From: Candidatus Poribacteria bacterium | GTDB taxonomy: Bacteria > Poribacteria > WGA-4E > PCPOR2b | Assembly (NCBI GenBank): GCA_965218095.1 | Contig: OZ244587.1 | Location: forward strand, 512,001 to 576,000 | Length of the DNA stretch: 64,000 bases | Reading direction: 5' to 3' | Shown: piece after piece, positions 32,683 through 64,000 of the stretch | Position numbering within the stretch: the stretch's first letter is position 1 | Layout of the letters: each line of letters starts with the position of its first letter | Notes under the pieces: model-generated | Database searches by the model: none | What the model was told of the DNA's origin: nothing | What the model saw: the letters and a program-made list of their open reading frames with translations, nothing else | Position numbers and translations under genes: made by a program

Positions 32683-34746
32683 TTAACTCAATAACTCTCT
32701 TTCAAAAGCACCATTCAGGATAGGGCCTCTTCGGATTTTCTTAATGGAATCGTGCAATTCACTTTCGTCATTATTCTGAATTGAATATCGTATCCCCCCA
32801 AATTCACGCTTTTCCCAATGGCGTTGAATACGCTTCCTAAACGCGGCAAGATCTACTTCTCTCTTTGATGCATAATCAGAAAATACAGCTTCGAGAAAGT
32901 CTGAACCTAGATAATACAGTGGGGCAAAATCGGAAGCGGGATCTCCTAGACGACAAGCCTCAAAGTCAATGATCCCGACAAGATGCTGCAAGTCTTTCTC
33001 CAAAAGGAAATTCTCATACCATAAATCACCGTGAATAAGTGATGGCTCGAACATGAAATTTTCTTCACCTTCCTGATATACTTTCCACCATTCAACGACG
33101 AGAGTTTGTTCACTTGTACTCAAGATGCGCTTCAGAGTCGGTAGCACATCCTTCTTCAGCTTTTGATCTTCTTCAAAAAGATCTGGGTGTTCCAGCCCAA
33201 ATGATCGGGCATCTAATCCGTGTAAAGCTACCAGAAAATTCGCGATATCAAGCGCAAGAATGGGTAGATTGGTTTTTCTAATCAACTCTTTCGTCAGCGT
33301 TATTCCATCAATCTTGGGATAACACAAGACTCCAAAAGGAAATGCTTCCGATGACTCAATAAAGTACTGAGGCGTAGGTATTTGAGGGGTGCTCATAAGT
33401 CCCCTTATCGAAAGAGTGTAATCAGATGTGTTACATTTCTCAGGGGTCTTCCCCAAATAGAATTGACTAACATAGCCAGTTGCAGTAAAACCACCCCCAG
33501 CATCAAAAAGGTAGAGACATTCGCTTTTCGACTCACCGGCAATTGCTTATGATTGGTATGGGTCGATAGTAATTGGCTCAACAATCCAAAGATAGGTTCA
33601 ATAGCAACCTTGCGCTTGTGTTGATAGGTCTGCAACTGCGCCGATTGATTCACCGCTTCAACATAACGCCGTGCCCGCTGACTCTTTGCGCCTCTGACGG
33701 GAGTGATTAGCAACAGTCCCTGGTTCGCCAAGTGTTGGGTACGTTTCAAGTCGGTATAGCCGGCATCAGCGACTAAATACCCGATGTTCTGTTCAAGCAG
33801 TGTGTCGAGTTGTCGGTCAAGGACGGCTTTTTCACTCACACACGCGGTGTCAATGGCACTCATACGAGGCAATCCCTCTATAGAGACGGTCAGATGAAGC
33901 CCATAGCCGTAAACCCAACCGTGATAGTGACTCTTTGACCAACTGGCGTCTGTGTCAATGGCACGGATGCCAGTTGGGATGCGATTGGCATTTCTATCCT
34001 TCTGATGCCAGACGCTTCCTTTTGCCTTAAACAGACTTTTGTCTTGGTAAACCACCTCTGGAGGTGAGTCAGGTATCAAAGTCATTCCCACATCACCGAG
34101 ATACCCGATGAACGCCTCTAGCTGGTAAGCGAGTTGTTTGTAGCGTCGGCAAAGGGTTGCCCGAGACGGAACACATGCCAGTTTAAGACGACACAGCCAC
34201 TGCGGGTGTAGCTTGAGCCATCTGTGTTGTGCCTTAAAGCGATGGAGGCCTTTGAGCGTTAAGATGGCAAAAAGGACAATCAAGCAGTCGTCTGTATACG
34301 ATTTCGGACGTCCATGGCTCTCAGGTGGCGGTGCATGGCTGGAAGCGTTGAAATGGTCAAGTTGTTCAAACAAAAATGTGATATAATACGTACTGTCAGG
34401 ATAACCCATGTTATAATCCTCTCTTTCTTGCACGTTAGATTAGATTATAACCGTTATCCTGACTCAAGTCTACTTATGAGCACCCCTCAGGTATTTCACA
34501 GGGGAGCAGATCGGCTATTTGAGGTAAAATCACCTTGTCCTGTAAGAATGCTTCGGATGACTTCGAATGTTTTCCAATCAGGACAATGTATTGGCCATCT
34601 GCTTCAATTGCGATACTGCGAAAACCTTCCCCAATGAGTTTCAAATCTGCGATCTCTAGGTCAGTCAGTTCTGTGTTAAGAGCTTTTTGGATTTCATCAA
34701 GCTTGCGTGTGATTTTGATTATGTGAGAATAAGCATCAGTGAACAT
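32683..34746 (-). pseudogene. Aminoglycoside phosphotransferase (APH)-family gene interrupted by IS
   Basis: IGEGFRS..LLPCEIP|TPQY..LIHGDLWYENFL..GIIDF; removing IS plus one TSD gives a 951-nt in-frame ORF. Confidence 0.85.
33384..34488 (-). mobile_element. IS related to copies A/B, 1105 bp
   Basis: 17-bp IR GAGGGGTGCTCATAAGT; TSD AGGTATTT; transposase 33405..34433 with WSKSHYHGWVYGYGLH. Confidence 0.92.
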
Positions 34747-34821
34747 TGAGATATTGGGAAGAGAGTAGTGGCGTGTCTTTCCTCTTTATATTTTTGAAGT
34801 TAGCCCTAAAACTACCATGGC

Positions 34822-34912
34822 ACAGAACGTTCTCGCCATTTGCGAACCCGCGAAGTGGGTTGCCGTCAGGCCAAGGAGTGTAAGCGACGCAGCGCAAGTG
34901 GACGTGTTATGC
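34822..34912 (-). other. attC-like site 1 (family A)
   Basis: + strand ACAGAACgtt...gcgaacccgcgaagtgggttgccg...gtGTTATGC. Confidence 0.7.
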
Positions 34913-34993
34913 GGCTCCTTCAGGACCGAAGCAACCAAAGGAAGCGAAGGGTTTGCAGGTTAGCCCCTCTTGGTTCGTGCTTTTTCAAACAGA

Positions 34994-35413
34994 TTACTCC
35001 GCGAACGTCTTCTGGCCCGTTTCCTTCTGTTTTCGCCTCAACTCTGCGATCTCTTCGTCTGTCAGACTTTCTCTGTCCGTTACGATAGTCTGTTCGATCA
35101 ATTCCAGCTTCAATTCCCGGTTAGTGAGCCACTCCCAGCGATCGGCATTTGCTGGGTGGGGATGTGGATGCACATCATCAGGACCAATCTCATCGGAAAC
35201 GGCATAGAGATAACTAGGCGTGACGCCGTTATGCTTCACTTTACATTTGTCAGATAGAGATTCACCTCCGGTAGACATAGAGACAAGTGAAGGTCTGTGA
35301 GAGAATGCTTTCGCCACACTCTTGTTCTGTGTGATTGAACTTCCGCCCCGCAGTTTTGTCAGCTTTTGCTGAGAACCATGATACCACGTAAGACTATAGT
35401 CGCAATCTGACAT
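34994..35413 (-). CDS. Hypothetical cassette protein
   Basis: 139 aa; bounded by 10-bp complementary cores GTTATGCGGC (34906) and GCCGCATAAC (35504). Confidence 0.75.
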   Translation of the reverse strand: MSDCDYSLTWYHGSQQKLTKLRGGSSITQNKSVAKAFSHRPSLVSMSTGGESLSDKCKVKHNGVTPSYLYAVSDEIGPDDVHPHPHPANADRWEWLTNRELKLELIEQTIVTDRESLTDEEIAELRRKQKETGQKTFAE

Positions 35414-35506: not shown

Positions 35507-35590
35507 GCATAACGTCTTCGCCGTGCCCAAACCGCGAAGTGGTTGGGCGGAGGACCGCATGGCCCAAAGCCGAAGGCACGATGGCCGCGG
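35507..35590 (-). other. attC-like site 2 (family A, R'' degenerate)
   Basis: GCATAACgtc...cccaaaccgcgaagtggttgggc...aaagccgaaggcacg. Confidence 0.6.
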
Positions 35591-35665
35591 TTCTTCGTCT
35601 ATGTCAGCGGCCTTCCCCAGGCGACTCTTGTTTCTAAGCCAGCTATCCGCTCTTTGACCCGTTGC

Positions 35666-35755
35666 GCCTAACGTTTAATGGTTTTCGAACCCGGAGCGTA
35701 GCGGAGGGTTGCCCGTAAGGGCCAAGGCAGCGCATGCCGCGCAGCGCTGTTCTTC
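35666..35755 (-). other. attC-like site 3 (family A, degenerate)
   Basis: GCCTAACgtt..ggttttcgaacccggagcgtagcggagggttgcccgtaagggcc..gctGTT. Confidence 0.6.
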
Positions 35756-35828: not shown

Positions 35829-36161
35829 TCACCCATCAAGATATTGATTGAACCAATAGGCTGGCATGGTCGCACGTATAACCGGCCACCATGACTCCGG
35901 TACAGGGAGATATTGCCACTCGCTCGGTTCGCTCAAGTCTGTTGAGTGAGCGGGCATCACAAGCGTCCCATTTACGCCCAAGACTTCTTGAAGTGCAATG
36001 ATGGCTGCTACCACCCCGCCGCACACCCATCCCATCGTGCTCAAGGACGAGTGAACCAGCAATACCATCCCCGTTCTGACGCCAAGCGCACCGAGATTTG
36101 CCTGCAACGAGTCAATCGTGGCGGGCGTTTTCGTTTTTTGAACGACTTGACCTTCACGCAT
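35829..36161 (-). pseudogene. Truncated AAC(3)-family N-acetyltransferase
   Basis: LLVHSSLS..GWVCGG..GTLVMPAH..VPESWW; only about 110 aa, C-terminal half missing. Confidence 0.8.
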
Positions 36162-36185: not shown

Positions 36186-36266
36186 GCATAACGTTTTTGC
36201 GCCCCGGAACTGCGAAGCGGTTGGACGAAGGCGCGTATGCGCCGTAGCCAGGGCACAGTGTTACAG
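36186..36266 (-). other. attC-like site 4 (family A)
   Basis: GCATAACgtttttgcgcc..aactgcgaagcggtt..gggcacagtGTTACAG, 10 nt from the next stop. Confidence 0.65.
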
Positions 36267-36275
36267 GGCGTGGAC

Positions 36276-37058
36276 TCAAATGGATCGTTCAGGAAGGAGA
36301 TGGAGTTTGTCAGATGGCAGATAATCCTTCAGCTCCTCTAGATGTCTTATTCTCTGTTCCTCCAACTGAGCGTAAAGTGGGAATTCGGTGCCTTTCGCCC
36401 TGAACTCCACCACCAGAAGCCTACGCTCCCGATGCCCTGGGGTCACCGATCCGCCGTGGACGAGTGTCCCCGACAGCAGGGAGGCCTGTCCATGTTCTGC
36501 AAAAACTGGAACGGGGGCCCCGTATTCGAGATCAGGTGGTAATTGCTTGATTTCGTTGTTGTTGTCGTCTGGGTGATCGTCCATGTAGCGCATCACCTGC
36601 AAGTGACTTCCAGGTCGGTAGTACAGCGGGCAGTTGTCGGCCTGGATATCAGTCAGCCACACGAAAAAGCTACTCGGCATCGCAACCGGAGTGCTGTCGG
36701 AAGAGGAAGTTCCACACTTAAAATCAACGTGTTCCGGTTCAAGGGTCGACTGAGCGTTGGGCCTGGGTTTCGTCACCCGCAAGGACACGAACGCCAGTTC
36801 GACGGCCTCCGCACGCAGGATTGTCTTGGAAACGTTCTCGAAGAATGGATAGTAGACAAGCCTCAATAGTTCAGGTTGCAGGACGCTGCCTGTATACCAT
36901 CCGACAGAATCCCCCCGCCCTTTGGGGATGAAATCAGCATCATCGAGTGCTTCTATGGCCTCATTCGCAGCTCGGAGCAATGCACAAGGAAAGCTTGGCG
37001 ACAAAGTGACAAGACCAGCCGTATGGAATCTCTCAATGTCGGTTTGATCAATGCTTAT
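36276..37058 (-). CDS. PhyH-like dioxygenase (start codon apparently mutated to ATA)
   Basis: EHVD, VWLTD, PGSH, LVHG; frame stays open upstream of TTG 37004 (IDQTDIERFHTAGLV) to ATA at 37058. Confidence 0.65.
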   Translation of the reverse strand: MSIDQTDIERFHTAGLVTLSPSFPCALLRAANEAIEALDDADFIPKGRGDSVGWYTGSVLQPELLRLVYYPFFENVSKTILRAEAVELAFVSLRVTKPRPNAQSTLEPEHVDFKCGTSSSDSTPVAMPSSFFVWLTDIQADNCPLYYRPGSHLQVMRYMDDHPDDNNNEIKQLPPDLEYGAPVPVFAEHGQASLLSGTLVHGGSVTPGHRERRLLVVEFRAKGTEFPLYAQLEEQRIRHLEELKDYLPSDKLHLLPERSI

Positions 37059-37208: not shown

Positions 37209-37655
37209 TTATTCTTGTCTTTCCCAACCGAAACTTTCAAAAAACAGGACTTTCTGATAGTTTTCGAATGCCTGTCTAACATAAGGCACCATATTGGGCG
37301 GTAAATCGTGGACAGAATGCCAAGATAGGTCATCACACTTGTCTGGTTCTGCGTTGACGATGTCTCCGCTCCATCTGGAGGCGGCAAGGAAGAATGACAC
37401 CCGTTCATCCTCATCCTTCCTGTGCATAACCCCGACCACTTCGATATCCGAGGGCAGAATCTCAATACCGGACTCTTCCTTCGCTTCTCTGATCGCCGCT
37501 GCCTTGACCTCCTCGTTACCGTCAATGTGTCCAGCAATCACGCTGTAGTTACCATCCTCATACCCAGTATTGAAGCGCCTCAAAAGCAGGATTTCATTGT
37601 TGTTGTTCGTTAGAAAAATATGGGCTTCTGGAGTCAGCTTGAATTTGTCAGACAT
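37209..37655 (-). CDS. NUDIX hydrolase
   Basis: AGHIDGNEEVKAAAIREAKEESG, NAEPDKC. Confidence 0.9.
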   Translation of the reverse strand: MSDKFKLTPEAHIFLTNNNNEILLLRRFNTGYEDGNYSVIAGHIDGNEEVKAAAIREAKEESGIEILPSDIEVVGVMHRKDEDERVSFFLAASRWSGDIVNAEPDKCDDLSWHSVHDLPPNMVPYVRQAFENYQKVLFFESFGWERQE

Positions 37656-37737: not shown

Positions 37738-37790
37738 GGCTAACGTTTTCGCGGCTTGCCGGAGGCCAAGTGCCGAATAGCGCGACTTAC
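37738..37790 (-). other. attC half-site (R' side only)
   Basis: GGCTAACgttttcgcggcttgccggaggccaag; far arm missing. Confidence 0.5.
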
Positions 37791-37834
37791 CTGATCTGAT
37801 ACGACGATTTTGCCTCCTGGTCTCTCAAGGTTGA

Positions 37835-38478
37835 TTACACATATCCTCGAACTGCCTCCGGGTATAATATTTTGGCGCCTGAGAGCACCTCAGCGTTCGT
37901 CAACCACTCAGTTTCCTGCCGGACCCCGTCTTCTGTTATCGGAACCTTAGGCATTGAATAAAATCGGTTTTCAATCTCAATCTCATAAAGCATCACCAGT
38001 TCATGACCAAGGTCATCCTTGTAATAAAATATATTGTCGATTGTGCAGAGATACCTGAATTGAAGAAGTTCCGTACCTAATTCCTCTCGAAATTCACGCC
38101 TCAGCGCATCAGGACGCGACTCACCATATTTAACACCGCCACCCGGAAAACGAAAGAAAAACTCTCTACTGTCAGGGTGCGTAAATCGCACCGCAAGCAC
38201 CCGATCCTTGTTCCGGACCATACCGAGAACAGTCGTGCGAATATGTTTCGTCCCGGGTTTCTGAACGAATGAAATCACATAGGAATCGAAAAAGCGCTCT
38301 TGGAACTCGGTTAGCGCCTTAATTTCATCTGCCCCATATCGGTCCACATGTCGTGAGACGACTAACTTATTCTCGTTGTCATCATTGCGGACAATTAGCC
38401 CAATTACGTTGCCCTCGTAGGAATCCAGAGGTTCAAATTCGCCCAGAACGTAGGCATCGATCTCTTCTCCATCCTCAG
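37835..38478 (-). pseudogene. Inorganic-pyrophosphatase-like domain fused to NUDIX, 5' truncated
   Basis: DGEEIDAYVLG..RNDDNENKLVV..FQERFF then PGGGVKYGESRPDALRREFREELG; N-terminus replaced by attC sequence. Confidence 0.7.
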
Positions 38479-38538
38479 CACCGCGCGGCGGTAGGGCGAA
38501 GGCGCAAGTGCGCGGCAGCGAAAATCGCTGTGTTAACC
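38479..38538 (-). other. attC half-site (R'' side) fused directly into the downstream gene
   Basis: accgcgcggcggtagggcgaaggcgc..gctgtGTTAACC; GTTAACCGA matches TCGGCTAAC at 39146 with one mismatch. Confidence 0.6.
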
Positions 38539-38552: not shown

Positions 38553-39116
38553 CTATACCTTGCTCGAAAGGTTAGACTCGAAGTCAGATGCGACGATTCC
38601 GTAGATAGCCACGTCTTCAAACGAACCACACCTTTGTAGCTGCTGTCTCAGAATCCCCTCGAGTCTCATTCCCGCTTTTTCCATAACCCGACCCGAAGCG
38701 GGATTCTTGGTCATGTGACGTGCCTGAACCCGATTCAGATTGAGTTCCTCAAAGCCATACTGAACAAATGCCTGTGCAGCCTCAGTACAGTATCCGTTGT
38801 TCCAGAACGCCTTTCCGATCCAATAACCAAGTTCTCCGTACAGATGCTTTTGGTTGACATGAAGACCGATCGCGCCAATGAGTTGTCCACTAGATTCCAA
38901 AACGATGGCAAGGATGATTTCCGAGCCGTTCTGAAATGCCCCTTCATGGCTACCGATCCACTCTTCAGCCATCCTGTCCTCATACGGATGGGGCAGGTTC
39001 GGCACTGTTGCGGCCACGTCACGGTCCCCTGCCAACTTTTGGACGTTGTTCGCGTCTTCGAGTCTAAAAGGACGGAGGAACAAGCGATTTGTAGCTAATC
39101 TTGGCCAAGTTTTCAC
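38553..39116 (-). CDS. RimJ/RimL-type GNAT acetyltransferase
   Basis: LATNRLFLRPF, ELGYWIG..WNNGYCTEA, NPASGRVMEKAGM. Confidence 0.92.
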   Translation of the reverse strand: MKTWPRLATNRLFLRPFRLEDANNVQKLAGDRDVAATVPNLPHPYEDRMAEEWIGSHEGAFQNGSEIILAIVLESSGQLIGAIGLHVNQKHLYGELGYWIGKAFWNNGYCTEAAQAFVQYGFEELNLNRVQARHMTKNPASGRVMEKAGMRLEGILRQQLQRCGSFEDVAIYGIVASDFESNLSSKV

Positions 39117-39147: not shown

Positions 39148-39236
39148 GGCTAACGTTTTGCTGGTTTGCGAACCCGCAAAGCGGGTTGCCGAAGGCAGAG
39201 GCATCAATGCGCCAAAGCCGAGGTACGGTGTTAGAC
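39148..39236 (-). other. attC site (family A)
   Basis: GGCTAACgttttgctggtttgcgaacccgcaaagcgggttgccgaaggc...cggtGTTAGAC. Confidence 0.75.
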
Positions 39237-39252: not shown

Positions 39253-40047
39253 CTATGTCAGCGGCCTTCCCCAGGTGACCCTTGTTTCTAATTGGAAACT
39301 GAGGAGTCCCTCATCATCGGCAAAGTCAGACAAGATATGCGATAGTTCGGCGTCGAAGGCCCTAACGTTTTCCTCCCCCATGTGTTCCTTGGACATGCTT
39401 TCTCTCGAGTGAAAAGACTCAACATAGTCTGCTAGCGGTTGAGAGAAGTCAATCGGTGTTGTCCGCTTATCTCCAATTGGGTGTAGGTACCCTCTATTCG
39501 AGATCTCTTGAACCAGATCCATCTCCTCATAGTGCTTGTTGGTGGAATACTTGCGGATCAATGAAAGCTCTGCATCATGCCAAGGCGATCCGATAGGACG
39601 ATCTCCATCAATGATTACGAGGTGCCCATCTGTCGTCAGCACTTCCTTGAATCTCGGAAAAACCACGCTCCACTCCATCCAATGAATACTTGCTCCAGCC
39701 GTCACCATATGGTAGGGCGGATACAACCGCTCCTCCTCGACGCGTCCATTGATCCACCGGAGGTTTGGGTGATCGCCGTTGATGAGCGACTTCCCCACTT
39801 GGATCATTTCTCGCGAGAAGTCAACCGCATCAACTCCGTCTACGTGATCGACGAGTGACCGTGCTATCTTTCCTGGACCACATCCGACGTCTAGAACTCT
39901 CCCCCGCGATTCTCCCAGCAAACTTAGAAGTATCCTATACGTCTCATCTGGATAGGGAGGCCGGAACTCGTACGCTTTCGCCAAACTCCGGTTCTTGAAT
40001 CGGGATGCGTGATCGTCCCAGTATTGTCGTGGCCTTGTGGTTTTCAT
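39253..40047 (-). CDS. Class I SAM-dependent methyltransferase
   Basis: RPPYP, VLDVGCGPG, AVDFSREM, SIHWM. Confidence 0.9.
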   Translation of the reverse strand: MKTTRPRQYWDDHASRFKNRSLAKAYEFRPPYPDETYRILLSLLGESRGRVLDVGCGPGKIARSLVDHVDGVDAVDFSREMIQVGKSLINGDHPNLRWINGRVEEERLYPPYHMVTAGASIHWMEWSVVFPRFKEVLTTDGHLVIIDGDRPIGSPWHDAELSLIRKYSTNKHYEEMDLVQEISNRGYLHPIGDKRTTPIDFSQPLADYVESFHSRESMSKEHMGEENVRAFDAELSHILSDFADDEGLLSFQLETRVTWGRPLT

Positions 40048-40050
40048 GTT

Positions 40051-56459: not shown

Positions 56460-58127
56460 TCAATCTCTAAACTGGAATGAGTACAGTTTCGCACGACGCA
56501 GGTAGAATTTCAGCTTTATGGTCTTGTCTTCCAAGCTGCCCAGTTCCGAGCCGCTTTTCCAAGCCATCGTATGACGCACGTTGTTACCTTTGAAGGCAAC
56601 ACACTCGGCACGGGTGAAGCCGCCAATGAGCGTAACATCGACTGATCCGTACATATTCTTGTATTCCAGTATTTCGACGGCCAATTCACCATCGTCAGCA
56701 TCGGCGTTGACCACCAGGCTGCCGCCATTAAACTTAAATGGCTTGGTAGTAAGAACGCCTGTCTCGTTGTCGGCCTCGAGGGAAACGAACCCGTCAAGCC
56801 TGAGTTTGCTCAAAGCTACCGCATTGTTAACGGGGTTAGTCCCAGATGGGAGCGGAGGCATTGGATTCGGGGCATGAGCGGTTTCCCGGCCTGCATAGTA
56901 GATCCATATCTCGTCACCCACAATCAAGGGGGGTTGAAACACATGGATCCACTCCCGCCTCTGGTCATATGGCTTCACCAGGGGCATAAAGGGTTTTCTC
57001 TCGCCAATCCTGATCCACCTCACTCCGTCTCGGCTGAAGGTCAATTCAACGTCCTCGGATTCCCCCTCCTCGGCGGTGGTGTGCACCTCCATATGGTTCT
57101 CGGACGAAGCCTGTGGTTTTGATGACCTTATTTTGTATTTGCGGTTGATACCTAGAAATCCGAAATAGACACCTTCGTATTGGAGGACCTCCATGTCATG
57201 GAAGGTGCCGCCGGTCTCACGGTCTTTTGCATCGGGGATCAATACAACCTCCGCCGGGGTCCAGTTCACAAAGTCGCGGCTCTGGCTGCGACCGACTATT
57301 CGAAGGTTCCCCGGCTTGGTGGGGTTAGAGGAGGGGTCAACCTCACCGAATGCAGCGAACATCCTCACTAACACCACGTAACGATCGATTCTGGTATCCC
57401 AGAAGACGTTGTTTTCTGTATCGCTTCGCAAAGGTATTATCGGATTGTCTTCATAGGGCGTCCAATGGATACCGTCGGGTGAATATGCTCCGTTGACCAT
57501 GAAGTAGGCCAAGGCAGGCGAGCCGCGGTAGAGCATCTTGTACTTTTTGGCTGGATCCTTTTCGACCGGGTCCTTCATGACGCAAAGGCCGTCAAGCATT
57601 GATCGTTGAGAATTCTCGTACGCCTTTCTCATCGACGGATCCCGCTCTGCGTCTTCTTTTGTCGGTGGGTCGGACTGAAAAATGACGTTGTTCGACCGCG
57701 AGCCTCGAAATTCCACTAGACCGAGCTGCGGCTTGGTCCAGACGACCCCATCCTCAGAGGTGGCATAGGCTGACGCTGCCGCGTTTTCTATTTCGTCGTA
57801 GCTTCTCACCCCATACCACATTTTGAACAGTCCTTGCTCGGTGTCATAGATGACGCTGCCGTATTGTGAAGTACGCAGGCCTTGCTCCCAAGGCTGATCG
57901 CAGTGCAGGACTGGGTTACCTTCGTACTTGACCGGTTGATTCAGAACACGTCTGAGGCCGTCCATCTCCTCGATGATAAAATCGTCCACGAAGAACTGCT
58001 TCTGGGTGCCAACGTGGCGATAATAACCATGCTTCCAGCCCCACCAGCCTCCGCCAGGGGCTGTTTGAGCTGCAAACAACAATGATGAACCAAGCAACAG
58101 AAAACATATCAATAGTAATAGGTACAT
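56460..58127 (-). CDS. Secreted five-bladed beta-propeller glycoside hydrolase-like protein (GH32/GH130-like)
   Basis: Signal peptide; KQFFVDD, SEDGVVWTKP, SPDGIHW, SRDGVRW, LRLDGFVSL. Confidence 0.7.
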   Translation of the reverse strand: MYLLLLICFLLLGSSLLFAAQTAPGGGWWGWKHGYYRHVGTQKQFFVDDFIIEEMDGLRRVLNQPVKYEGNPVLHCDQPWEQGLRTSQYGSVIYDTEQGLFKMWYGVRSYDEIENAAASAYATSEDGVVWTKPQLGLVEFRGSRSNNVIFQSDPPTKEDAERDPSMRKAYENSQRSMLDGLCVMKDPVEKDPAKKYKMLYRGSPALAYFMVNGAYSPDGIHWTPYEDNPIIPLRSDTENNVFWDTRIDRYVVLVRMFAAFGEVDPSSNPTKPGNLRIVGRSQSRDFVNWTPAEVVLIPDAKDRETGGTFHDMEVLQYEGVYFGFLGINRKYKIRSSKPQASSENHMEVHTTAEEGESEDVELTFSRDGVRWIRIGERKPFMPLVKPYDQRREWIHVFQPPLIVGDEIWIYYAGRETAHAPNPMPPLPSGTNPVNNAVALSKLRLDGFVSLEADNETGVLTTKPFKFNGGSLVVNADADDGELAVEILEYKNMYGSVDVTLIGGFTRAECVAFKGNNVRHTMAWKSGSELGSLEDKTIKLKFYLRRAKLYSFQFRD

Positions 58128-58139
58128 GACAATGACTCC

Positions 58140-59372
58140 TTAATCATTATTCTCATAGAACCATTTGACTGGTACAACCTTTATCTTGCATGCAACGTAG
58201 CCGACGGGGTCATACTTACACCCGTAGCCATAGGTTATTATCACCTTATCATTAAGGAACGTACAGGTCGGATAGGCTACGCGCAGAGCCCCGGGAGCTT
58301 TGTGGTACCGCTTGCGATCCTCGGGTTGATGGTATGTGCTATATTTTTTGGAATCGGTGTGGTAACGCTTTATCTCCGACAGTTCAACCCGGGTAACGTC
58401 ATCCAGGGATTCCAGGTTCTTGAAGCTCTCCCAAGTTTTTCCCTCGTCGCGGCTAATCGCGCAGGAAAGGCGATGGCGGGTGAGATAACGCTGCCACTCC
58501 TTGGACGAGGTCTGGTTCCAGATAACCAGAAGATCGTCCGTCGTAGGGATGCGCCTGACGATGCACGGAGTATCGCCGGAAACGAGCTGAGTCGGCTCGA
58601 CCTGCTCCCAAGTGTCTCCTTGATCCTTGGAAATACACTGGAACAGACGGTTGAGATTCGTCCTTCCCATTCCCAGCAGCCGACCGTCCTTGAGCTCCAC
58701 CACACTCCACTCGTCCCACATCTGTATTCCTTTGTAGTCGGCATCGAAGGGCACGAGAATAATAGTCTTACTTTCGTACCAGGTCTTGCCCTCGTCGTCG
58801 GAGTAGTGGGCGATACCGAAGTTGAAATCCATGTCCCCCTCGCCCATAATCTTGGCCAGCGGAGGAGACATATACGCCGGAGCAAGGATACGACCGCTTT
58901 TGAGCACAATAGCACAATCGTTTCTGACGTGATTGCCCCACTTGCGAGGACCTATCGCTGCCGGCTTGCTCCATGTCTCACCCTCATCCTCGGAGCGATA
59001 GAAGGTATCAAAACAGATCAGTCCGATAGCCCCGGACTTCAGTCTCAACAGGCTACAATGGCCTCCTTTGACGGATTCGCCGCCCTTAATCTTCAGAGAA
59101 AATAGCTCGCTCCAGGTCTTGCCGCCATCAGCAGAGGTAACGCCATAGGTCCCGCCGCCGGGGACTCCCTTGAAATTCCCGCCACGCCACAAGTTGGACG
59201 CCAGCAGCAACCGCCCGTCTTTCAAAGGCAGGACGCTGGGAACATAGGGTGATCCCCCGCACAACGCTCCCCCACCGATCTGATCCTCGATGGGGTAAAT
59301 CTCCCCGCCGAAGCTGATAATCCCCTCAAAGGTTTCCTGTGTCATAATATAACCTTTCGTATACAACAACAA
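58140..59372 (-). CDS. Sialidase/BNR-repeat protein
   Basis: Asp-boxes SADGGKTW, SEDEGETW, SDDEGKTW, SKDQGDTW, SRDEGKTW. Confidence 0.85.
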   Translation of the reverse strand: MLLYTKGYIMTQETFEGIISFGGEIYPIEDQIGGGALCGGSPYVPSVLPLKDGRLLLASNLWRGGNFKGVPGGGTYGVTSADGGKTWSELFSLKIKGGESVKGGHCSLLRLKSGAIGLICFDTFYRSEDEGETWSKPAAIGPRKWGNHVRNDCAIVLKSGRILAPAYMSPPLAKIMGEGDMDFNFGIAHYSDDEGKTWYESKTIILVPFDADYKGIQMWDEWSVVELKDGRLLGMGRTNLNRLFQCISKDQGDTWEQVEPTQLVSGDTPCIVRRIPTTDDLLVIWNQTSSKEWQRYLTRHRLSCAISRDEGKTWESFKNLESLDDVTRVELSEIKRYHTDSKKYSTYHQPEDRKRYHKAPGALRVAYPTCTFLNDKVIITYGYGCKYDPVGYVACKIKVVPVKWFYENND

Positions 59373-59563
59373 AATAAACAGTGTACTATATGAGCGAAAA
59401 GAATTTTGGATACACTATGTTGCTCCTGACATATCCCCGATTTATATGCCAAGTTCTGTGTGAGTCAGACCGGTTTCCTTCCGTGTGTTCCGGTCTTGCC
59501 ATCAAGGACAACTCCGGCAAAAGTGTTTTCTGCCTCTTTGGTGGTCAGGTAGCTGCTCCGTGT

Positions 59564-61429
59564 CTATTGCATGGCAGTTTTGAGGGCCTGGATGTGTCTG
59601 GCTGCCTCCTGGCGGAAATGATCGGCCTGGGGCTCCGTCCATTTGCCTTCGTGTGCCCCTTCCCCCCAGGGGATGTTGTCCATTGTGGCGTTCAGGAAGA
59701 CTTCCGCGTTATCGGCAAGCAGGGCGAGTTGGGTCCGTTTGTCGTTCGAGACGTTCTTTGAGGCGAGAGACTTGTGTGCCTGAGCTATCCAATGTTTTAA
59801 CGTCCGTGCATAGCGGGAGTCGTTGATGCCCTCGCGAATCGCCTCCCAAGGCACGGTAGGTAACAATGTGCCATCACGGGAGATGTAGGAAGGTGCAGCG
59901 TGTGCGTAACTCCTGCCCTCATTTCCGCGTATGAACTCGTCGTATTCATTTGTGTACTCATAGGGTCCGTAGTACGTCCACATCGTCATGCCGGTAGCCC
60001 CACCCTTTTCGGGCAAGAGTCCTGCATTGGTTCGCATACCCTGGTAGCCGTTGCTCGGGCTCAGCGACAATATCGCCCAAACCGCGGCTCCTTTCTTCCC
60101 TGCCGCGGCCAGGATCGCCTCATTGGTTTCCTTGTCAGCTAAGTTATCCAACGTGGTGTTCGCTATGTCCAACCACGGCAAGAGCTTCTGGATGACGTTG
60201 AGTTCGTACGCGGTGCAGAAAATCCGTGCGCTAGGAAGCGCCTGCTTGAGAATCGGCATCTCAAGCAGAGCCCAGTTCATAACCGCGTCGTTGAACCGTG
60301 GTTCATCAACGGGGTAATAGATTAGTGGATAGGGCCAGCCGGCTTGTTTTGCATGGGCGTCAATCTGGCGGAAAAGGTCCGCAAGCACGGGTTTCAGCGA
60401 TTCAGGATACTTGTCTACTTCGTAAAGCACGTTCTTCGTACCGTAATACCTGTGCGGTTTGAATCCCTTCTCCATACCAAACAGGAGTATAAGTTTATTG
60501 GAAAGCAACCGGGGATAGTAAATCACATCCTTAAAGCCCAACTCTTTGATCACGGGCATACACTGATCGGCATTGGGGAAGGTCAACTCCACTTTATCGC
60601 CCACTTTCTTCATTACCGGTTCGACCTTGCCGTCGCAGTACAGAATGCCGGTCATTCCGTGGTCCCGCATGTCCTGAAAAACACGTTTGGTAATAGTTCC
60701 GTTCCAACCGCCATAGTAATACATACCCCACCACATGGACTCGGCGAGCACAAAGTCAGGCACCCGGACGACAAGTTCCAGGTCGGCGGTACCGCCCTTC
60801 TCGGCGCTTATGGTGATCTTTCCTCGATAGCTACTTGCGGTGGCGTTTTTCGGCACGGCGATCGTCAACCAGAATTGCTGACTTTGGTCCTGCTCTACAG
60901 CCGGGGCATCTTTTTGTTGGATCAAGAGATGGGGAACCCGGTGAACTCGGTAGGACCCAAGCCTGCGGTATATTGATTTGACGATTCGAACGTCAATCGC
61001 TTTCTTGTCAACCCGTCCACCGCCTGCCGAGACCAAGTCGGTTACAGTTATTCGCACCATGCCCAGGTCCCTGATCGCGTAAATCGCGAATTGCACGTGC
61101 CGCTTTTCTCCGGCGGTGATCAGTGTTTCCAATGCCGAGGTCAACTCACCTCTCCGCGGCGCCGAGTTTTCAAATACCTCGTCCGAAGCCTTCCGCTGAT
61201 AAACGACATATCCCTGCTTTTTCTGGGCGGGTTTCCGCGCACGGGTCCTGAATACCGTTTGGGGCCTGATTTCGGTGTATTCCTCATCCTCGAAGATGAG
61301 TATCCTCTTGCCGTCCACTATCTTTTCCGTTACGTTTTGTGCCAAGGCGTTTGTCCCGACAAAGAAGGTCACGCAGAGCATACCGCAGATTGCCACAAAT
61401 CTTTCAAGGAAACGTGGGCGGTGCGACAT
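59564..61429 (-). CDS. Secreted GH123/DUF4091-like glycoside hydrolase
   Basis: Signal peptide; QQFWLTIAVP..YRGKI, YPVDEP, WEAIREGINDSRY. Confidence 0.65.
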   Translation of the reverse strand: MSHRPRFLERFVAICGMLCVTFFVGTNALAQNVTEKIVDGKRILIFEDEEYTEIRPQTVFRTRARKPAQKKQGYVVYQRKASDEVFENSAPRRGELTSALETLITAGEKRHVQFAIYAIRDLGMVRITVTDLVSAGGGRVDKKAIDVRIVKSIYRRLGSYRVHRVPHLLIQQKDAPAVEQDQSQQFWLTIAVPKNATASSYRGKITISAEKGGTADLELVVRVPDFVLAESMWWGMYYYGGWNGTITKRVFQDMRDHGMTGILYCDGKVEPVMKKVGDKVELTFPNADQCMPVIKELGFKDVIYYPRLLSNKLILLFGMEKGFKPHRYYGTKNVLYEVDKYPESLKPVLADLFRQIDAHAKQAGWPYPLIYYPVDEPRFNDAVMNWALLEMPILKQALPSARIFCTAYELNVIQKLLPWLDIANTTLDNLADKETNEAILAAAGKKGAAVWAILSLSPSNGYQGMRTNAGLLPEKGGATGMTMWTYYGPYEYTNEYDEFIRGNEGRSYAHAAPSYISRDGTLLPTVPWEAIREGINDSRYARTLKHWIAQAHKSLASKNVSNDKRTQLALLADNAEVFLNATMDNIPWGEGAHEGKWTEPQADHFRQEAARHIQALKTAMQ

Positions 61430-61508
61430 TTGTCGGGTCCTTTCGTAATGTATTCTTGTCGGCTCAATTCACAGTGAGTGTTGGTAACGTGTTCACATCC
61501 GGTTAATA

Positions 61509-62027
61509 CTAATTCTTGATCAATATGTTACAAATGTGTATAATGTAATCTAGACCTTTGAACAATCCAAAGGGAATGAATCCCAAAATAAACAGCATCG
61601 GCAAGTCAAGCGCCGCGGCAAGAAAAGCCTTCCAACGCCCGTTATAACTTAGCTTCCAGCTAGAAAATAGTAGACCTCCGAGCAGCCAGAGAGAGTACAG
61701 TTGAAGAGGCAAGAAGATTATGCCGAACAAAGCAGCACGCAATGCGCGATTCACCGCTTCTTCAATTTCCGAGACGTCGGTAAACCCTTCCTCCACGTCA
61801 ATAGGAGCAATATCTGGCTCTTGGAGGAAGGCAATTGCCTGTTCGACATCGGGCTCGGCGACTTGCAATTTGATGCCACCGAGCGCATTGCTCAGATGCC
61901 AAGCCACGCCAACGGTCAATTCGTCAGCGAGAAAAACCGTCAGATCGTTGGCTTCGAGGACACTCTTGGCGAGTGAGGCATCGGTAGGCATTTGAAAGGT
62001 AGCGACTGTCACAAGCTTTTCGGTCAT
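61509..62027 (-). CDS. DUF2007-like N-terminal domain membrane protein (cassette)
   Basis: LVTVATF..ASLAKSVLE..GGIKLQV; starts 17 nt after the attC R' core. Confidence 0.7.
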   Translation of the reverse strand: MTEKLVTVATFQMPTDASLAKSVLEANDLTVFLADELTVGVAWHLSNALGGIKLQVAEPDVEQAIAFLQEPDIAPIDVEEGFTDVSEIEEAVNRALRAALFGIIFLPLQLYSLWLLGGLLFSSWKLSYNGRWKAFLAAALDLPMLFILGFIPFGLFKGLDYIIHICNILIKN

Positions 62028-62043: not shown

Positions 62044-62114
62044 TCCAAACGACCAAGCTCACCGGCGGCAATGGAACGTAGCGGAATTGCCGCCGGTGCA
62101 GCGCTTTGTTAGCC
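62044..62114 (-). other. attC site (71 bp)
   Basis: Minus strand GGCTAACaaagcgctgcaccggcggc..gccgccggtgagcttggtcGTTTGGA. Confidence 0.9.
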
Positions 62115-62121
62115 ATTTGTA

Positions 62122-63702
62122 TCACCGTTTTATCGCATCAATCTGAGCGGCACGCTTCTCTAGTTTTTCAGCTTTTTCGCTACGGTTCGTTGCTCTATAG
62201 AGTGCTGCAAGGTTGTTCAGACTTGCCGCCACATTGGGGTGGTCGGAGCCGAGCGCTTTTTCCACTATTGAGAGTGAACGTTTGTAGAGGGGTTCGGCTT
62301 TAGCGTAATTGCCTTGGGTGTCATAGAGTAGTGCAAGATTGTTGAGGCTTGTTGCCACATCGGGGTGGTCGGAGCCGAGTGCTTTTTCCGAGATTGAGAG
62401 TGCACGCTTGTAGAGCGGTTCGGCTTTGGCGTAATTGCCTTGGGTGTCATAGAGTCCTGCCAGATTGTTGAGGCTTATCGCCACATCGGGGTGGTCGTAG
62501 CCGAGTGCTTTTTCCGTTATTGAGAGTGCACGCTTGAGGAGCGGTTCGGCTTTGGCGTAATTGCCTTGGGTGTCATAGAGTAATGCAAGATTGTTGAGGC
62601 TTGTTGCCACATCGGGGTGGTCGGAGCCGAGCGTTTTTTCCTTTATTGAGAGGGAGCGTTTGTAGAGCGGTTCGGCTTTGGCGTAATCGCCTTGGGTGTC
62701 ATAGAGTGCTGCAAGATTGTTCAGGCTTGTTGCCACATCGGGGTGGTCGGAGCCGAGTGCTTTTTCCCTTATTGAGAGGGCACGCTTGAGGAGGGGTTCG
62801 GCTTTGGCGTAATTGCCTTGGGTGTCATAGAGTAGTGCAAGATTGTTGAGGCTTGTCGCCACATCGGGGTGGTCGGAGCCGAGTGCTTTTTCCGAGATTG
62901 AGAGTGCACGCTTGTGGAGGGGTTCGGCTTTTGCGTAATTGCCTTGGGTTCTATAGAGTGCTGCAAGGTTGTTCAGACTTTGAGCCACATCGGGGTGGTC
63001 GGAGCCGAGTGCTTTTTCCGAGATTGAGAGTGCACGCTTGAGGAGCGGTTCGGCTTTGGCGTAATCGCCTTGGGTGTCATAGAGTGCTGCAAGATTGTTG
63101 AGGCTTGTCGCCACATTAGGGTGGTCGGGACCGAGTGCTTTTTCGTGTATTGAGAGCGCACGCTTGTACAACGGTTCGGCTTTGGCGTAATTGCCTTGGG
63201 TGTCATAGAGCAATGCAAGATTGTTGAGGCTTTGAGCCACATTGGGGTGTTCGGGACCGAGTGCTTTTTCCCTTATTGAGAGCGCACGCTTGAGGAGCGG
63301 TTCGGCTTTGGCGTAATTGCCTTGGGTTCTATAAAGTTCTGCAAGATTGTTGAGGCTTGCCGCCACATTGGGGTGGTCGTAGCCGAGCGCTTTTTCGTGT
63401 ATTGAGAGCGCACGCTTGTACAACGGTTCGGCTTTGGCGTAATTGCCTTGGGTGGCATAGAGTGCTGCCAGATTGTTGAGGCTTGTCGCCACAGCGGGGT
63501 GGTCGGGACCGACACTGTTCTCAGCGACTTTGTAAGCTTCTTGAGCAACAATGACAGCACGCTCATATTTGCCTGCACGATAGAGTTTAACAACTTCCTG
63601 ATTCAGAATATCCCATTCTATGCCAGCTCCCTGTGCAAAGACATTTAATGCTCCGAGTTGTAAGAGCGAAAAAATCACTGTAACTAATTTTACAATTTTC
63701 AT
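62122..63702 (-). CDS. Secreted kinesin-light-chain-type TPR protein (gene cassette)
   Basis: Signal peptide; 42-aa repeats HPxVAxSLNNLAxLYxTQGxYAKAEPL; perfect cassette cores GTTAGCC/GGCTAAC. Confidence 0.92.
   Translation of the reverse strand: MKIVKLVTVIFSLLQLGALNVFAQGAGIEWDILNQEVVKLYRAGKYERAVIVAQEAYKVAENSVGPDHPAVATSLNNLAALYATQGNYAKAEPLYKRALSIHEKALGYDHPNVAASLNNLAELYRTQGNYAKAEPLLKRALSIREKALGPEHPNVAQSLNNLALLYDTQGNYAKAEPLYKRALSIHEKALGPDHPNVATSLNNLAALYDTQGDYAKAEPLLKRALSISEKALGSDHPDVAQSLNNLAALYRTQGNYAKAEPLHKRALSISEKALGSDHPDVATSLNNLALLYDTQGNYAKAEPLLKRALSIREKALGSDHPDVATSLNNLAALYDTQGDYAKAEPLYKRSLSIKEKTLGSDHPDVATSLNNLALLYDTQGNYAKAEPLLKRALSITEKALGYDHPDVAISLNNLAGLYDTQGNYAKAEPLYKRALSISEKALGSDHPDVATSLNNLALLYDTQGNYAKAEPLYKRSLSIVEKALGSDHPNVAASLNNLAALYRATNRSEKAEKLEKRAAQIDAIKR
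62197..63501 (-). repeat. Tandem 126-bp repeat, 10 full units plus 1 partial
   Basis: Near-identical DNA units encoding the TPR repeats. Confidence 0.9.
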
Positions 63703-63718
63703 ATTTATATCCTTGTAT

Positions 63719-63864
63719 GGCTAACGAAAAAGTTCAGTTGTCCGATGAATCGGACGAGCACGGTGCCGGTTTGCCGAAAACTGTTCGGCAAACCAAAAAC
63801 CGCCACATACCAGAACCTAATAAAAACCGCATTTCACGCCATCGCCTGCAACGGCTGGTTCGGT
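63719..63864 (-). other. attC site (family D, homologous to 56252-56399)
   Basis: GGCTAACgaaaaagttcagttgtccg..ggtttgccgaaaa..ctgcaacggctgGTTCGGT. Confidence 0.88.
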
Positions 63865-64000
63865 GCTTGGTTTTCTATCTGCTCATAGGATAAATCGGGA
63901 AGACTAGCTTGTTGACGAGCGTGTTCAACGGTCATTGCTACCAGATTTCCTGAAACATCCAAATCGATGTAAATATTTTCGTTAATCTCTTTCGTTTCAG
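63834..64000 (-). CDS. DUF2283-like (putative antitoxin) protein, C-terminal part
   Basis: Manual: ETKEINENIYIDLDVSGNLVAMTVEHARQQA..; stop lies inside the attC. Confidence 0.6.
   Translation of the reverse strand, partial: ETKEINENIYIDLDVSGNLVAMTVEHARQQASLPDLSYEQIENQAPNQPLQAMA

What the first reader, a model, noticed from the sequence alone, without database searches (positions are those of the whole stretch)
32683..64000. Hidden ~31-kb integron-type cassette array (CALIN-like) with at least four attC families and no integrase in the window
Seen: nearly all non-IS genes from 32.7 kb onward are on the minus strand and are separated by imperfect palindromes of the form RYYYAAC...GTTRRRY. Starts are at 34822, 35507, 35666, 36186, 37738, 38479, 39148, 41199, 42175, 50773, 51099, 56252, 62044 and 63719. 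Within one cassette the core after the stop matches the core before the start: 34906/35504 (10/10), 62108/63719 (7/7), 38532/39146 and 41299/42173 (1 mismatch each). Known: this complementarity is the signature of IntI-mediated circular cassette insertion, and the extra-base asymmetry at 56252 and 62044 makes the minus strand the top strand. Inference: this is a long, mosaic, partly eroded array in a probable Poribacteria-like genome, and any intI/attI would lie beyond 64000.
Basis: partly seen in the sequence, partly recalled or inferred. Interest (0 to 1): 0.85.

Follow-up and report, generated by a model that had tools for sequence, protein, structure and literature searches.

The report
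Integrase-less integron cassette array, partly eroded
This stretch is a decayed integron gene-cassette array that has lost its integrase, a known kind of element (a CALIN), here in an uncultured bacterium whose genome holds several other broken integrons.

Summary
All 14 listed sites are present, and I found one more at 37152-37214. Read on the minus strand, each follows a minus-strand ORF and runs from a xxxTAAC core to a GTTxxxx core.

The integron reading is supported by four lines of evidence.
- One cassette (62045-63725) has a paralogue elsewhere in the genome. Homology begins exactly at GTTAGCC and ends exactly at the GTT of its own attC.
- Core complementarity across 12 cassettes beats random pairing (p about 2-4e-4).
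- The 150-nt site family (56252, 63719) also lies beside an intI remnant with an attI-like junction at 1.055 Mb. It forms arrays in related genomes, one of which keeps an intact IntI.
- Relatives and metagenome contigs carry the same cassettes in other orders.

The array extends 3.6 kb past the window to a 31-nt attI-like site, with no intI there. The genome has only intI fragments.

Erosion is real. IS elements interrupt the array, three or more sites have lost a core, and only 4 of 14 fold better than shuffles. Gaps of 5-8.5 kb would split the array under IntegronFinder's 4-kb rule. IntegronFinder itself could not be run.

Verdict: a new member of a known kind, of moderate interest.

The parts
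32683..34746 (-). APH-family phosphotransferase gene, split by an IS. It is the last unit at the distal end of the array, and no attC follows it.
   Evidence: Pfam APH 65 bits. The IS sits at about 33379-34493 and has 14 or more near-identical copies in the genome. I read the sequence after the stop codon and saw no core pair.
34822..34912 (-). attC S1 (GCATAAC...GTTCTGT), type I
   Evidence: The MFE fold pairs the site end to end. Its R'' matches the start of its own cassette 10 of 10.
34994..35413 (-). Cassette ORF of 139 aa with no Pfam family
   Evidence: It is flanked by S2 and S1. Homologues at 70-73% aa identity in G014, G003 and G017 have no visible attC.
35507..35660 (-). attC S2, which has lost its R'' end, followed by a 74-nt remnant of a methyltransferase 3' end
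   Evidence: 35564-35637 matches 39212-39291 at 84% identity. Read.
35666..35755 (-). attC S3, a weak site (GAAGAAC...GTTAGGC)
   Evidence: The fold is no better than shuffles.
35829..36161 (-). Truncated AAC(3)-type acetyltransferase gene; only the N-terminal third remains
   Evidence: Pfam Antibiotic_NAT, profile positions 1-67 of 232.
36186..36266 (-). attC S4 (CTGTAAC...GTTATGC), type I
   Evidence: The constrained fold gives a hairpin of -12.2 kcal/mol.
36276..37004 (-). PhyH-family dioxygenase cassette gene
Its R'' (GAATAAC) contains the NUDIX stop codon.
   Evidence: Found by both of my scans. Fold energy -12.9 kcal/mol, with a 2-nt bulge on the 5' arm.
37209..37655 (-). NUDIX hydrolase cassette gene (first of three)
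37738..37792 (-). attC S5, with R'' degenerate (AAG in place of AAC)
37835..38470 (-). NUDIX-domain cassette gene (second of three). The start codon is uncertain.
   Evidence: the NUDIX domain covers aa 131-248 of the longest frame.
38476..38538 (-). attC S6, with R'' GGTTAAC intact and R' degenerate
   Evidence: Its R'' matches the S7 R' flank at 5 of 7 positions.
38553..39116 (-). GNAT acetyltransferase cassette gene
   Evidence: Pfam Acetyltransf_3, 126 bits.
39148..39236 (-). attC S7 (GTCTAAC...GTTAGCC), type I
   Evidence: Fold z -2.0. Many metagenome contigs match only 39163-39196, with other flanks on both sides.
39253..41067 (-). Two-gene cassette: a methyltransferase and a glycosyl-transferase-family-3 (TrpD-like) gene
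41199..41305 (-). attC S8 (CGGTAAC...GTTATGC), type I
   Evidence: nhmmer cross-hit with S9.
41341..42171 (-). Second methyltransferase cassette gene
   Evidence: 91% nt identity in G014, where it sits in a different cassette order.
42175..42293 (-). attC S9 (GCATAAC...GTTTCCG), type I
   Evidence: 8 of 8 core match with the S10 R' flank.
42366..43547 (-). NUDIX gene (third of three) and two fragments of a dehydrogenase gene
43699..46514 (.). Three IS copies inserted side by side
   Evidence: DDE transposase domains. Each IS has tens to more than 100 copies in the genome.
46537..49783 (+). Three + strand ORFs (416 aa, 172 aa, and 185 aa with a T9SS sorting tail) lying inside the interrupted cassette interval
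49801..50748 (-). Adenosine-deaminase-family cassette gene
   Evidence: 86% nt identity in G014.
50773..50916 (-). attC S10, 144 nt (TGTTAAC...GTTATGC)
   Evidence: Fold z -3.5, with 1 of 200 shuffles folding as well.
51099..51212 (-). attC S11. An alternative R'' at 51246-51252 would make it 154 nt long.
   Evidence: The unconstrained fold is weak.
51247..51525 (-). ORF of 92 aa with no Pfam family
   Evidence: 78-82% nt identity in 14 of 16 g4 genomes.
51747..56125 (-). Four-gene block (MlrC/M81 peptidase, TauD, PhyH, xylose-isomerase-like TIM barrel) lying between S12 and S11
   Evidence: The relatives show only weak single-gene nucleotide matches, to TauD and PhyH.
56252..56399 (-). attC S12, type II, member of the 150-nt family R1
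   Evidence: Model R1, 158.8 bits (it is a training member). nhmmer with this site alone finds 26 other copies. The geometry is canonical.
56460..62027 (-). Four-gene block (555-aa unknown, BNR/sialidase-like, GH123-like, DUF2007) lying between S13 and S12
   Evidence: The first three genes have no nucleotide match in 40 relatives.
62044..62114 (-). attC S13, 71 nt (GGCTAAC...GTTTGGA), with one extra G on the 5' arm
   Evidence: Fold z -4.2, 0 of 200 shuffles. Family copies lie at genome 577093 and 1561488.
62122..63702 (-). TPR-repeat protein cassette gene
   Evidence: A paralogous cassette at 1561488-1562539 has boundaries exactly at the cores.
63719..63864 (-). attC S14, type II, member of family R1
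   Evidence: Model R1, 129 bits (it is a training member).
63834..64000 (-). 3' part of a DUF2283 gene. It belongs to a DUF4258/DUF2283 pair that continues past the window end and looks like a toxin-antitoxin cassette.
   Evidence: DUF2283 53.7 bits; DUF4258 19.9 bits, below the cut-off.

Best explanation
The region is the surviving cassette array of a chromosomal integron that has lost its integrase, that is, a CALIN.

Layout. It runs for about 35 kb on the minus strand. It starts at an attI-like 31-nt site at genome 579611-579642, which is 3.6 kb beyond the window. It ends at the IS-split APH gene at window 32683. Each cassette is a gene or a few genes followed by an attC site.

Inferred mechanism. 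An IntI tyrosine recombinase would have recognised the folded bottom strand, which here is the + strand, and cut between G and TT of the R' core. Recombination between two attC sites would have excised circles. Recombination between attI and attC would have inserted them at the head of the array.

Current state. This genome has no intact IntI, so the array is frozen and decaying. IS elements have landed in it, three or more sites have lost a core, and two resistance-type genes are broken.

Shown here: the sites, their geometry, cassette units bounded exactly at the cores, the link of one site family to intI and attI remnants, and shuffled cassette order in relatives.

Inferred only: catalysis by IntI, the timing of its loss, and any mobilisation by an integrase supplied from another cell.
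For: 1. Exact cassette boundaries. Window 62045-63725 matches genome 1561488-1562539 at about 89% identity. Upstream, homology starts at GTTAGCC. Downstream, it ends at the GTT of the R' core, after which the two copies diverge (TGGAGG versus CGGCGC).

2. Core complementarity. The R'' of each cassette's own attC matches that cassette's first bases: 45 of 84 positions over 12 cassettes, permutation p = 3.5e-4 and 1.7e-4.

3. Canonical geometry in family R1 and the S13 type. The layout is a 7-nt core, a 5-nt spacer, 3 bp, one extra base, 6 bp, a second extra base in R1, then a stem. On the other arm there is a 6-7-nt spacer and the GTT core. The extra bases lie on the 5' arm of the minus strand. 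By the definition in PMC2727003 (passages read), this makes the minus strand the top strand. My structure pairs 86.7% of cells, against 24-48% when the partners are slid.

4. Family R1 belongs to real integrons.
- At 1.055 Mb an intI N-terminal remnant (82% aa identity to an intact IntI) is followed by an attI-like box pair, one cassette and an R1 site.
- The same cassette recurs after an R1 site at 5.240 Mb. Homology there starts at GTTAGGC.
- Model R1 finds 29 sites in this genome, 17 of them training members.
- It finds matches in 24 of 41 genomes, G000 included. G001 has 67 matches, with runs spaced about 0.8 kb apart. G006 has 23 matches and an intact IntI scoring 505.8 bits against a cut-off of 265.

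5. Gene content typical of cassettes. It includes APH, an AAC(3) fragment, GNAT, three NUDIX genes, two methyltransferases, and a DUF4258/DUF2283 pair. Just past the window lies a BsuBI/PstI restriction-modification pair.

6. Relatives share single cassettes at 74-91% nt identity in other orders.
- G014 has 139aa, deaminase, MTase2, 92aa. The window has 139aa, MTase2, deaminase, 92aa.
- G004 has a collinear subset.
- G038 has a permuted order.

7. Metagenome contigs.
- 13-18 loose ends per DNA run flank only the conserved core 39163-39196.
- Contigs in X2 join the 3' part of S9 to S5 or to S4.
- A contig in X4 joins S7 to 41360.

8. Core genes bracket the array. NifU and IscA lie at 31.1-31.9 kb. 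An aminotransferase, MutY, a GTPase and PFK lie beyond 579.9 kb.
Against: - IntegronFinder's and HattCI's attC models could not be run. My model R1 covers only one family, and both window members were in its training set.
- 10 of 14 sites do not fold better than shuffles.
- S2, S5 and S6 each lack one core. S3 and S11 are weak.
- 7 of 12 cassettes show 4 or fewer matches out of 7 in the core test.
- Family R1 shows little covariation. 5 pairs have double changes, against a shuffle mean of 3.1, and 83 of 500 shuffles do as well.
- Three intervals (42.3-50.8, 51.2-56.25 and 56.4-62.0 kb) are far larger than usual cassettes.
- In G004, G010, G014, G017 and G003, homologues of some cassette genes have no attC that I could see beside them.
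- No intI remnant lies at the attI-like head.
- The intact IntI of G006 has no visible cassettes in the 4 kb up to its contig end.
- The tool warns that joints seen below 95% likeness may come from other organisms.
Confidence: 0.85

Rival explanations
1. This is not one array. It is a dense 8-kb CALIN (34.8-42.3 kb) plus several separate small clusters or single attC sites. Those sites were placed at secondary sites, or brought together by IS-driven rearrangement, among ordinary accessory genes.
For: - Gaps of 8.5, 5.0 and 5.6 kb exceed the 4-kb rule and the roughly 2-kb largest known cassette quoted in PMC4889954.
- Site types change along the region. Type I ends (AACAC.. / ..AAAACGTTA) occur at 34.8-50.9 kb. 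Type II ends (AAC-5 nt-GYT-G.. / ..CTGAACT..GTTAGG) occur from 56.3 kb on.
- The genome carries hundreds of IS copies.
- R1 sites are scattered over 15 or more loci.
Against: - All sites share one strand and one orientation from the attI-like head to the distal end.
- Core matches bridge two of the gaps: S9/S10 8 of 8, and S12/S13 6 of 7 in the 7-mers.
- The 8.5-kb gap is explained by three IS copies.
- Core genes bracket the whole 35 kb.
Confidence: 0.12
2. The palindromes are a dispersed repeat unrelated to integrons: a REP/BIME-like element, a MITE, or terminator hairpins.
For: - Family R1 is dispersed, often as single copies.
- Its interior is strongly conserved, and covariation is weak.
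- Most sites lie just after stop codons, as terminators do.
Against: - The repeated unit is the cassette, and its ends fall inside the 7-nt cores rather than outside the element.
- One family sits next to intI remnants and an attI-like junction.
- The sites belong to four or more unrelated sequence families that share only the cores and the geometry.
- I saw no T-run after the hairpins when reading the sequence.
- No Rfam family matches. There were 0 matches at gathering score. At E up to 1 there was one match, to a miRNA family inside an IS, which I take as chance.
Confidence: 0.03

Closest known systems
CALIN (cluster of attC sites lacking integron-integrase), as defined by Cury et al. 2016, PMC4889954 (passages read)
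   Same: - Two or more attC sites on one strand with no nearby intI.
- Cassettes mostly unlike those of mobile integrons.
- IS elements present.
- intI pseudogenes elsewhere in the genome.
   Different: - With 15 sites in the window and 3 beyond it, this is larger than most. The paper says 83% of CALINs have fewer than six sites.
- Its gaps exceed 4 kb.
- It keeps an attI-like head.
Sedentary chromosomal integrons such as the Vibrio cholerae superintegron. Their defining features here are recalled, except for what quote.
   Same: - Chromosomal location.
- A lineage-specific long attC family with a branched variable terminal structure, as with VCRs.
- A toxin-antitoxin-like cassette and a restriction-modification cassette.
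- Taxon-specific attC families are known (PMC8352920, passages read).
   Different: - No integrase.
- The attC sites within the array are heterogeneous, with four or more families.
- Far fewer cassettes.
- Heavy IS invasion.
Canonical attC sites (attC of aadA7, VCR), as described in Bouvier et al. 2009, PMC2727003 (passages read)
   Same: - Inverse cores.
- An unpaired central spacer.
- Extra bases on the R''-L'' arm, 7 nt apart.
- Crossover in R'.
   Different: In family R1 and the S13 type, the first extra base is G on the top strand, hence C on the bottom strand. The paper calls the bottom-strand G particularly conserved. It also reports that changing G to C costs only 1.2- to 2.7-fold.

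Membership tests
attC recombination site | Inverse core sites: R'' (RYYYAAC) at the 5' end and R' (GTTRRRY) at the 3' end of the top strand | tested here: met
   12 of 15 window sites have both an AAC and a GTT core. S2 lacks R'', S5 has AAG, and S6 has a degenerate R'. The four flanking positions fit RYYY/RRRY only loosely.
attC recombination site | An imperfect hairpin with an unpaired central spacer and extra-helical bases on the R''-L'' arm | tested here: met
   Shown for family R1 (S12, S14), S13, S4b, and 576332 and 577093 beyond the window. It is inconclusive for S3, S5, S6, S8, S9 and S11, whose MFE folds are not end to end.
attC recombination site | The crossover lies between G and TT of R', so the cassette begins with TTRRRY and ends with G | tested here: met
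   Two independent cassette paralogue pairs have homology that ends at the GTT of the cores. The G|TT position itself cannot be resolved, because the GTT is shared.
attC recombination site | Recognised by the IntegronFinder or HattCI attC models | not testable with these tools
   Neither program nor its model is available here, and Rfam holds no matching family.
attC recombination site | Recombined by an integron integrase | not testable with these tools
   This needs a bench assay.
CALIN | At least two attC sites on one strand, less than 4 kb apart | tested here: met
   Ten sites between 34822 and 42293 have gaps of 2 kb or less. The later sites are 5-8.5 kb apart, so the whole region would not form a single cluster under this rule.
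CALIN | No integron integrase nearby | tested here: met
   TIGR02249 gives 0 matches over the cut-off in the genome. The nearest integron-integrase remnant lies at 1.055 Mb, and a weaker hit at 0.861 Mb looks like an ordinary tyrosine recombinase (47 bits). The window lies at 0.512-0.576 Mb. tblastn with an intact IntI finds nothing at the array head.
Complete integron | intI next to attI and the first cassette | tested here: not met
Complete integron | An attI site at the head of the array | tested here: inconclusive
   A 31-nt element heads this array and also the TPR paralogue cassette at 1562535. Its two inverted boxes are GGCTAAT and GTTAG, 5 nt apart. The junction beside the intI remnant at 1.055 Mb has the same box layout. 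It has no adjacent intI and was not found in 40 relatives.
MITE / REP-type dispersed repeat | The whole element is the repeated unit, with target-site duplications | tested here: not met
   The repeated units end inside the terminal 7-mers. I did not search systematically for duplications.

The most novel reading that the evidence does not exclude
The clade runs a 'distributed' integron. Most genomes have lost intI: only 1 of the 41 searched has an intact copy. Yet they keep attC-bounded cassettes and orphan attI-like heads. These are still reshuffled in the natural, apparently sponge-associated, population by an integrase supplied from co-resident relatives. The system would also move operon-sized cassettes of four genes and 5-6 kb. 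That is more than twice the roughly 2-kb largest cassette quoted in PMC4889954.
Probability: 0.15. Interest if true: 0.7.

Novelty: new member of a known kind. Interest (0 to 1): 0.4.

Why it matters
It adds a well-documented case of integron decay in an uncultured lineage. The case comprises:
- one 35-kb array frozen without its integrase;
- five intI fragments in the same genome;
- a clade-wide attC family present in 24 of the 41 genomes searched, G000 included, while an intact IntI was found in only one.

It gives concrete material for open questions about CALINs: how they arise, whether their cassettes can still be mobilised from outside, and how large a cassette can be.

It also shows that small-molecule-modifying genes, including broken aminoglycoside-resistance-type genes, sit as cassettes in an environmental symbiont.

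Tried and rejected
1. My own attC scanners. A 6-mer stem-seed scan found only 3 of the listed sites among 21 hits in the window. A constrained-fold scan passed 81 of 636 candidates in 64 kb, most of them plainly not sites. Neither is specific, so I used them only as pointers. They did turn up 37152-37214.

2. A generic attC covariance model. Local MAFFT aligned the ends of 20 diverse sites fairly well. The tool's own alignment of 21 sites put the 3' cores of type I and type II sites in different columns. I therefore built no generic model, and I cannot say whether further sites hide inside the large intervals.

3. RNAalifold on family R1 predicted only an inner hairpin of 12 pairs. I supplied the attC structure by hand.

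4. Single-site nhmmer queries against the loci beside relatives' IntI genes (L013-L015) found nothing.

5. Motif searches for type I sites in relatives' loci found one clear site in G038.

6. A protein search for the array's flanking core genes in nine relatives' loci found none. I could not define an empty site.

7. Literature.
- 'integron' with 'Poribacteria' returned 5 papers, none about integrons in that phylum judging by their titles and abstract openings.
- 'sponge symbiont' / integron / attC and integron / 'marine sponge' / gene cassette / intI listed no paper on integrons of sponge symbionts.
- I saw search listings only, so I do not claim that nothing is in print.

8. RNA run X10. Its contigs cover parts of six cassettes. 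The tool states that this does not show transcription.

10. Supplementary files of papers were not consulted. The attC alignments and taxon lists in the supplements of PMC4889954 and PMC8352920 might bear on whether this site family is already catalogued.

Full report
**What is there.** The window is genome G000, contig C1, positions 512001-576000, in a 6.35-Mb single-contig genome. From 32.7 kb to the window end, most genes that are not IS genes lie on the minus strand. Read on the minus strand, each starts with a core ending in AAC (mostly xxxTAAC) and ends with a core starting with GTT (mostly GTTAxxx). Each lies just after a minus-strand ORF. I found a fifteenth site at 37152-37214, whose first core contains the stop codon of the NUDIX gene before it. 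The sites are 55 to 148 nt long.

It holds. The four quoted matches are correct, and 42287/50773 also matches 8 of 8. Over 12 consecutive pairs, 45 of 84 positions beyond the AAC/GTT match. Random re-pairing of the same ends gives p = 3.5e-4 for all seven positions and 1.7e-4 for positions 2-7. Five of the 12 cassettes score 5 or more out of 7. Seven score 4 or less, which fits erosion or wrongly drawn ends. Folding is weaker evidence. Only 4 of 14 sites fold clearly better than shuffles (z -4.2, -3.5, -3.2 and -2.0); the other 10 do not.

**Direct evidence that the unit is an integron cassette.**
- The TPR cassette (62045-63725) has a paralogue at 1561488-1562539, at about 89% identity.
- Upstream, the two loci are unrelated until GTTAGCC, where homology starts.
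- Downstream, homology runs through the cassette's own attC and stops at the GTT of its R' core.
- The attC upstream of the window copy is not part of the repeated unit.
- This is the structure of an integron cassette, with the minus strand as top strand. It is not what a transposon or a dispersed repeat would leave.

**Site geometry.** In the 150-nt family (S12, S14) and the S13 type the layout is as follows:
- a 7-nt core, then a 5-nt spacer;
- 3 bp, one extra base, then 6 bp;
- in the 150-nt family, a second extra base;
- then the stem;
- on the other arm, a 6-7-nt spacer and the GTT core.

The extra bases lie on the 5' arm of the minus strand. One detail differs from the usual. The first extra base is G on the top strand, hence C on the bottom strand, whereas that paper calls the bottom-strand G particularly conserved. 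The same paper reports that a G-to-C change costs only 1.2- to 2.7-fold.

**The 150-nt family belongs to real integrons.**
- I aligned 17 copies from this genome.
- My hand-drawn attC structure pairs 86.7% of cells, against 24-48% when partners are slid. Covariation is weak because the family is homogeneous.
- Model R1, built from this alignment, finds 29 sites in the genome, 17 of them training members.
- One site lies 0.9 kb from an intI N-terminal remnant at 1.055 Mb. Between them are an attI-like pair of inverted boxes and a single cassette.
- The same cassette recurs at 5.240 Mb directly after another R1 site, with homology starting at GTTAGGC.
- Among 40 relatives plus G000, 24 of 41 genomes have R1 matches. 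G001 has 67, some in runs spaced about 0.8 kb apart. G006 has 23.
- G006 also has the only intact IntI found, at 505.8 bits against a cut-off of 265. Only 3 of the 41 genomes have any strong IntI match.
- That IntI is 60-70% identical to integron integrases of many phyla.
- Taxon-specific attC families are a known phenomenon (PMC8352920, passages read).

**Extent of the array.**
- Beyond the window, the array continues with a DUF4258/DUF2283 pair and an attC at 576332-576429.
- Next come a truncated R1 site, an ORF of 164 aa with no significant Pfam match, and an S13-type attC at 577093-577163.
- Then comes a BsuBI/PstI restriction-modification pair.
- The array ends at a 31-nt element at 579611-579642, directly before the first cassette.
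- This element has two inverted boxes 5 nt apart. Its only other copy in the genome heads the TPR paralogue cassette at 1562535. It was not found in 40 relatives.
- Its box layout matches the junction beside the intI remnant at 1.055 Mb. It also resembles the simple-site layout of attI sites; that resemblance is recalled, not tested.
- No intI remnant lies next to it. Core genes follow: an aminotransferase, MutY, a GTPase and PFK.
- At the other end, the last unit is an APH-family gene split by an IS, with no attC after it. Next come Fe-S cluster genes on the other strand.
- The array therefore spans about 35 kb between core genes. It has 15 sites in the window and 3 beyond it.

**Integrase.** The genome has no intact integron integrase. 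TIGR02249 gives 9 matches at E up to 0.001 and none over the cut-off. The best is a pseudogene at 1.537 Mb with 7 stop codons. tblastn with the G006 IntI finds pieces at 1.055, 1.226, 1.537, 2.745 and 5.238 Mb, plus one weak hit at 0.861 Mb that looks like an ordinary tyrosine recombinase.

**Erosion and mosaic make-up.**
- One IS splits the APH gene, and three lie side by side at 43.7-46.5 kb. Each has tens to more than a hundred copies in the genome.
- S2 has lost its first core and is followed by a 74-nt copy of a methyltransferase 3' end.
- S5 and S6 each have one mutated core.
- The AAC(3)-type gene keeps only its first third.
- Site sequences fall into at least four unrelated families. 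They fall into two broad end types: type I at 34.8-50.9 kb and type II from 56.3 kb on.
- Three intervals are much larger than normal cassettes. IS insertions explain the one at 42.3-50.8 kb.
- The two four-gene blocks (51.7-56.1 and 56.5-62.0 kb) have at most weak single-gene nucleotide matches in relatives. They may be very large cassettes, or cassettes that lost inner sites. I could not decide between these.

**Relatives and populations.**
- The dense part (34.8-42.9 kb) has matches in 28 of 41 genomes, G000 included, but only as cassette-sized blocks at 74-91% identity.
- G004 carries a collinear subset, G038 a permuted set, and G014 has two cassettes in swapped order. Gene order is therefore not conserved.
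- Some homologues in relatives have no attC that I could see. This fits older decay there, but it also means that some of these genes behave as ordinary genes in sister lineages.
- Nine DNA runs from three studies hold 48% or more of the sampled words. Four sponge metatranscriptome runs hold 13-18%.
- I laid four runs. In each of the three DNA runs, 13-18 loose contig ends flank only the conserved core of S7 (39163-39196), and their consensus flanks carry the TAAC core.
- Contigs in X2 join the 3' part of S9 to S5 (depth 35.8) or to S4 (depth 3).
- One contig in X4 skips from S7 to 41360 (depth 29.7).
- These point to other cassette orders in co-occurring strains or relatives. The tool warns that joints below 95% likeness can come from other organisms.

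**Comparison with what is known.** The element meets the published definition of a CALIN (PMC4889954). It looks like the remains of a sedentary chromosomal integron. It fails the test for a complete integron because it has no intI. The repeat and terminator readings fail on the cassette boundaries and on the link to intI remnants. Rfam offers no alternative.

**Verdict.** An attI-like head exists, but without an integrase. The array is interrupted enough that standard software would split it. The taxon claim is untested. It is a new member of a known kind. Its main value is as a clear example of integron decay across a clade, with some unusual details: a C as the first bottom-strand extra base, an orphan attI-like site, and possible operon-sized cassettes.

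Noticed in passing
genome C1:577158-579589 (L136:1158-3589), just beyond the window: A BsuBI/PstI-type restriction endonuclease and an Eco57I-type methylase form the first cassette after the attI-like head. This is a defence system carried as an integron cassette.
   Followed up: partly
window 36161-36192 and 50748-50779: Two unrelated cassettes, the AAC(3) fragment and the adenosine deaminase, share a 41-nt leader from the GTTATGCGAA core to the start codon (93% identity). This suggests a conserved cassette 5' end, or recombination between cassettes.
   Followed up: no
genome C1:1055430-1055857 and 2745027-2745251: An intI N-terminal piece (aa 1-143) and a C-terminal piece (aa 250-324) are both 72-87% identical to the G006 IntI (N piece 72-82% over its two segments, C piece 87%). 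They could be two parts of one gene separated by a rearrangement. A truncated R1 attC abuts the C-terminal piece.
   Followed up: partly
window 43699-44524 and elsewhere: The genome is extremely rich in IS elements. The 826-bp IS alone gives far more than 100 blastn matches at 85-98% identity.
   Followed up: no
window 30933-31064: A short repeat of 45-96 nt occurs at about a dozen places in the genome. It lies just outside the array and was not characterised.
   Followed up: no
window 55210-55324 and L136:3780-3860: GC-rich hairpin-like intergenic repeats, for example GTTGGGTT..AACCCAAC. They look like REP-type elements and are distinct from the attC sites.
   Followed up: no
G012 locus L050:15837-16389: In G012 the block matching window 38247-38474 lies directly next to the block matching the AAC(3) fragment cassette (35857-36179). 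In the window these two blocks are 2 kb apart. The junction was not examined.
   Followed up: no
alignment A2; window 39163-39196 and 56290-56320: Type I sites and the R1 family share an inner motif, TCGGCAA(A)CCC. The two attC families may be related.
   Followed up: no
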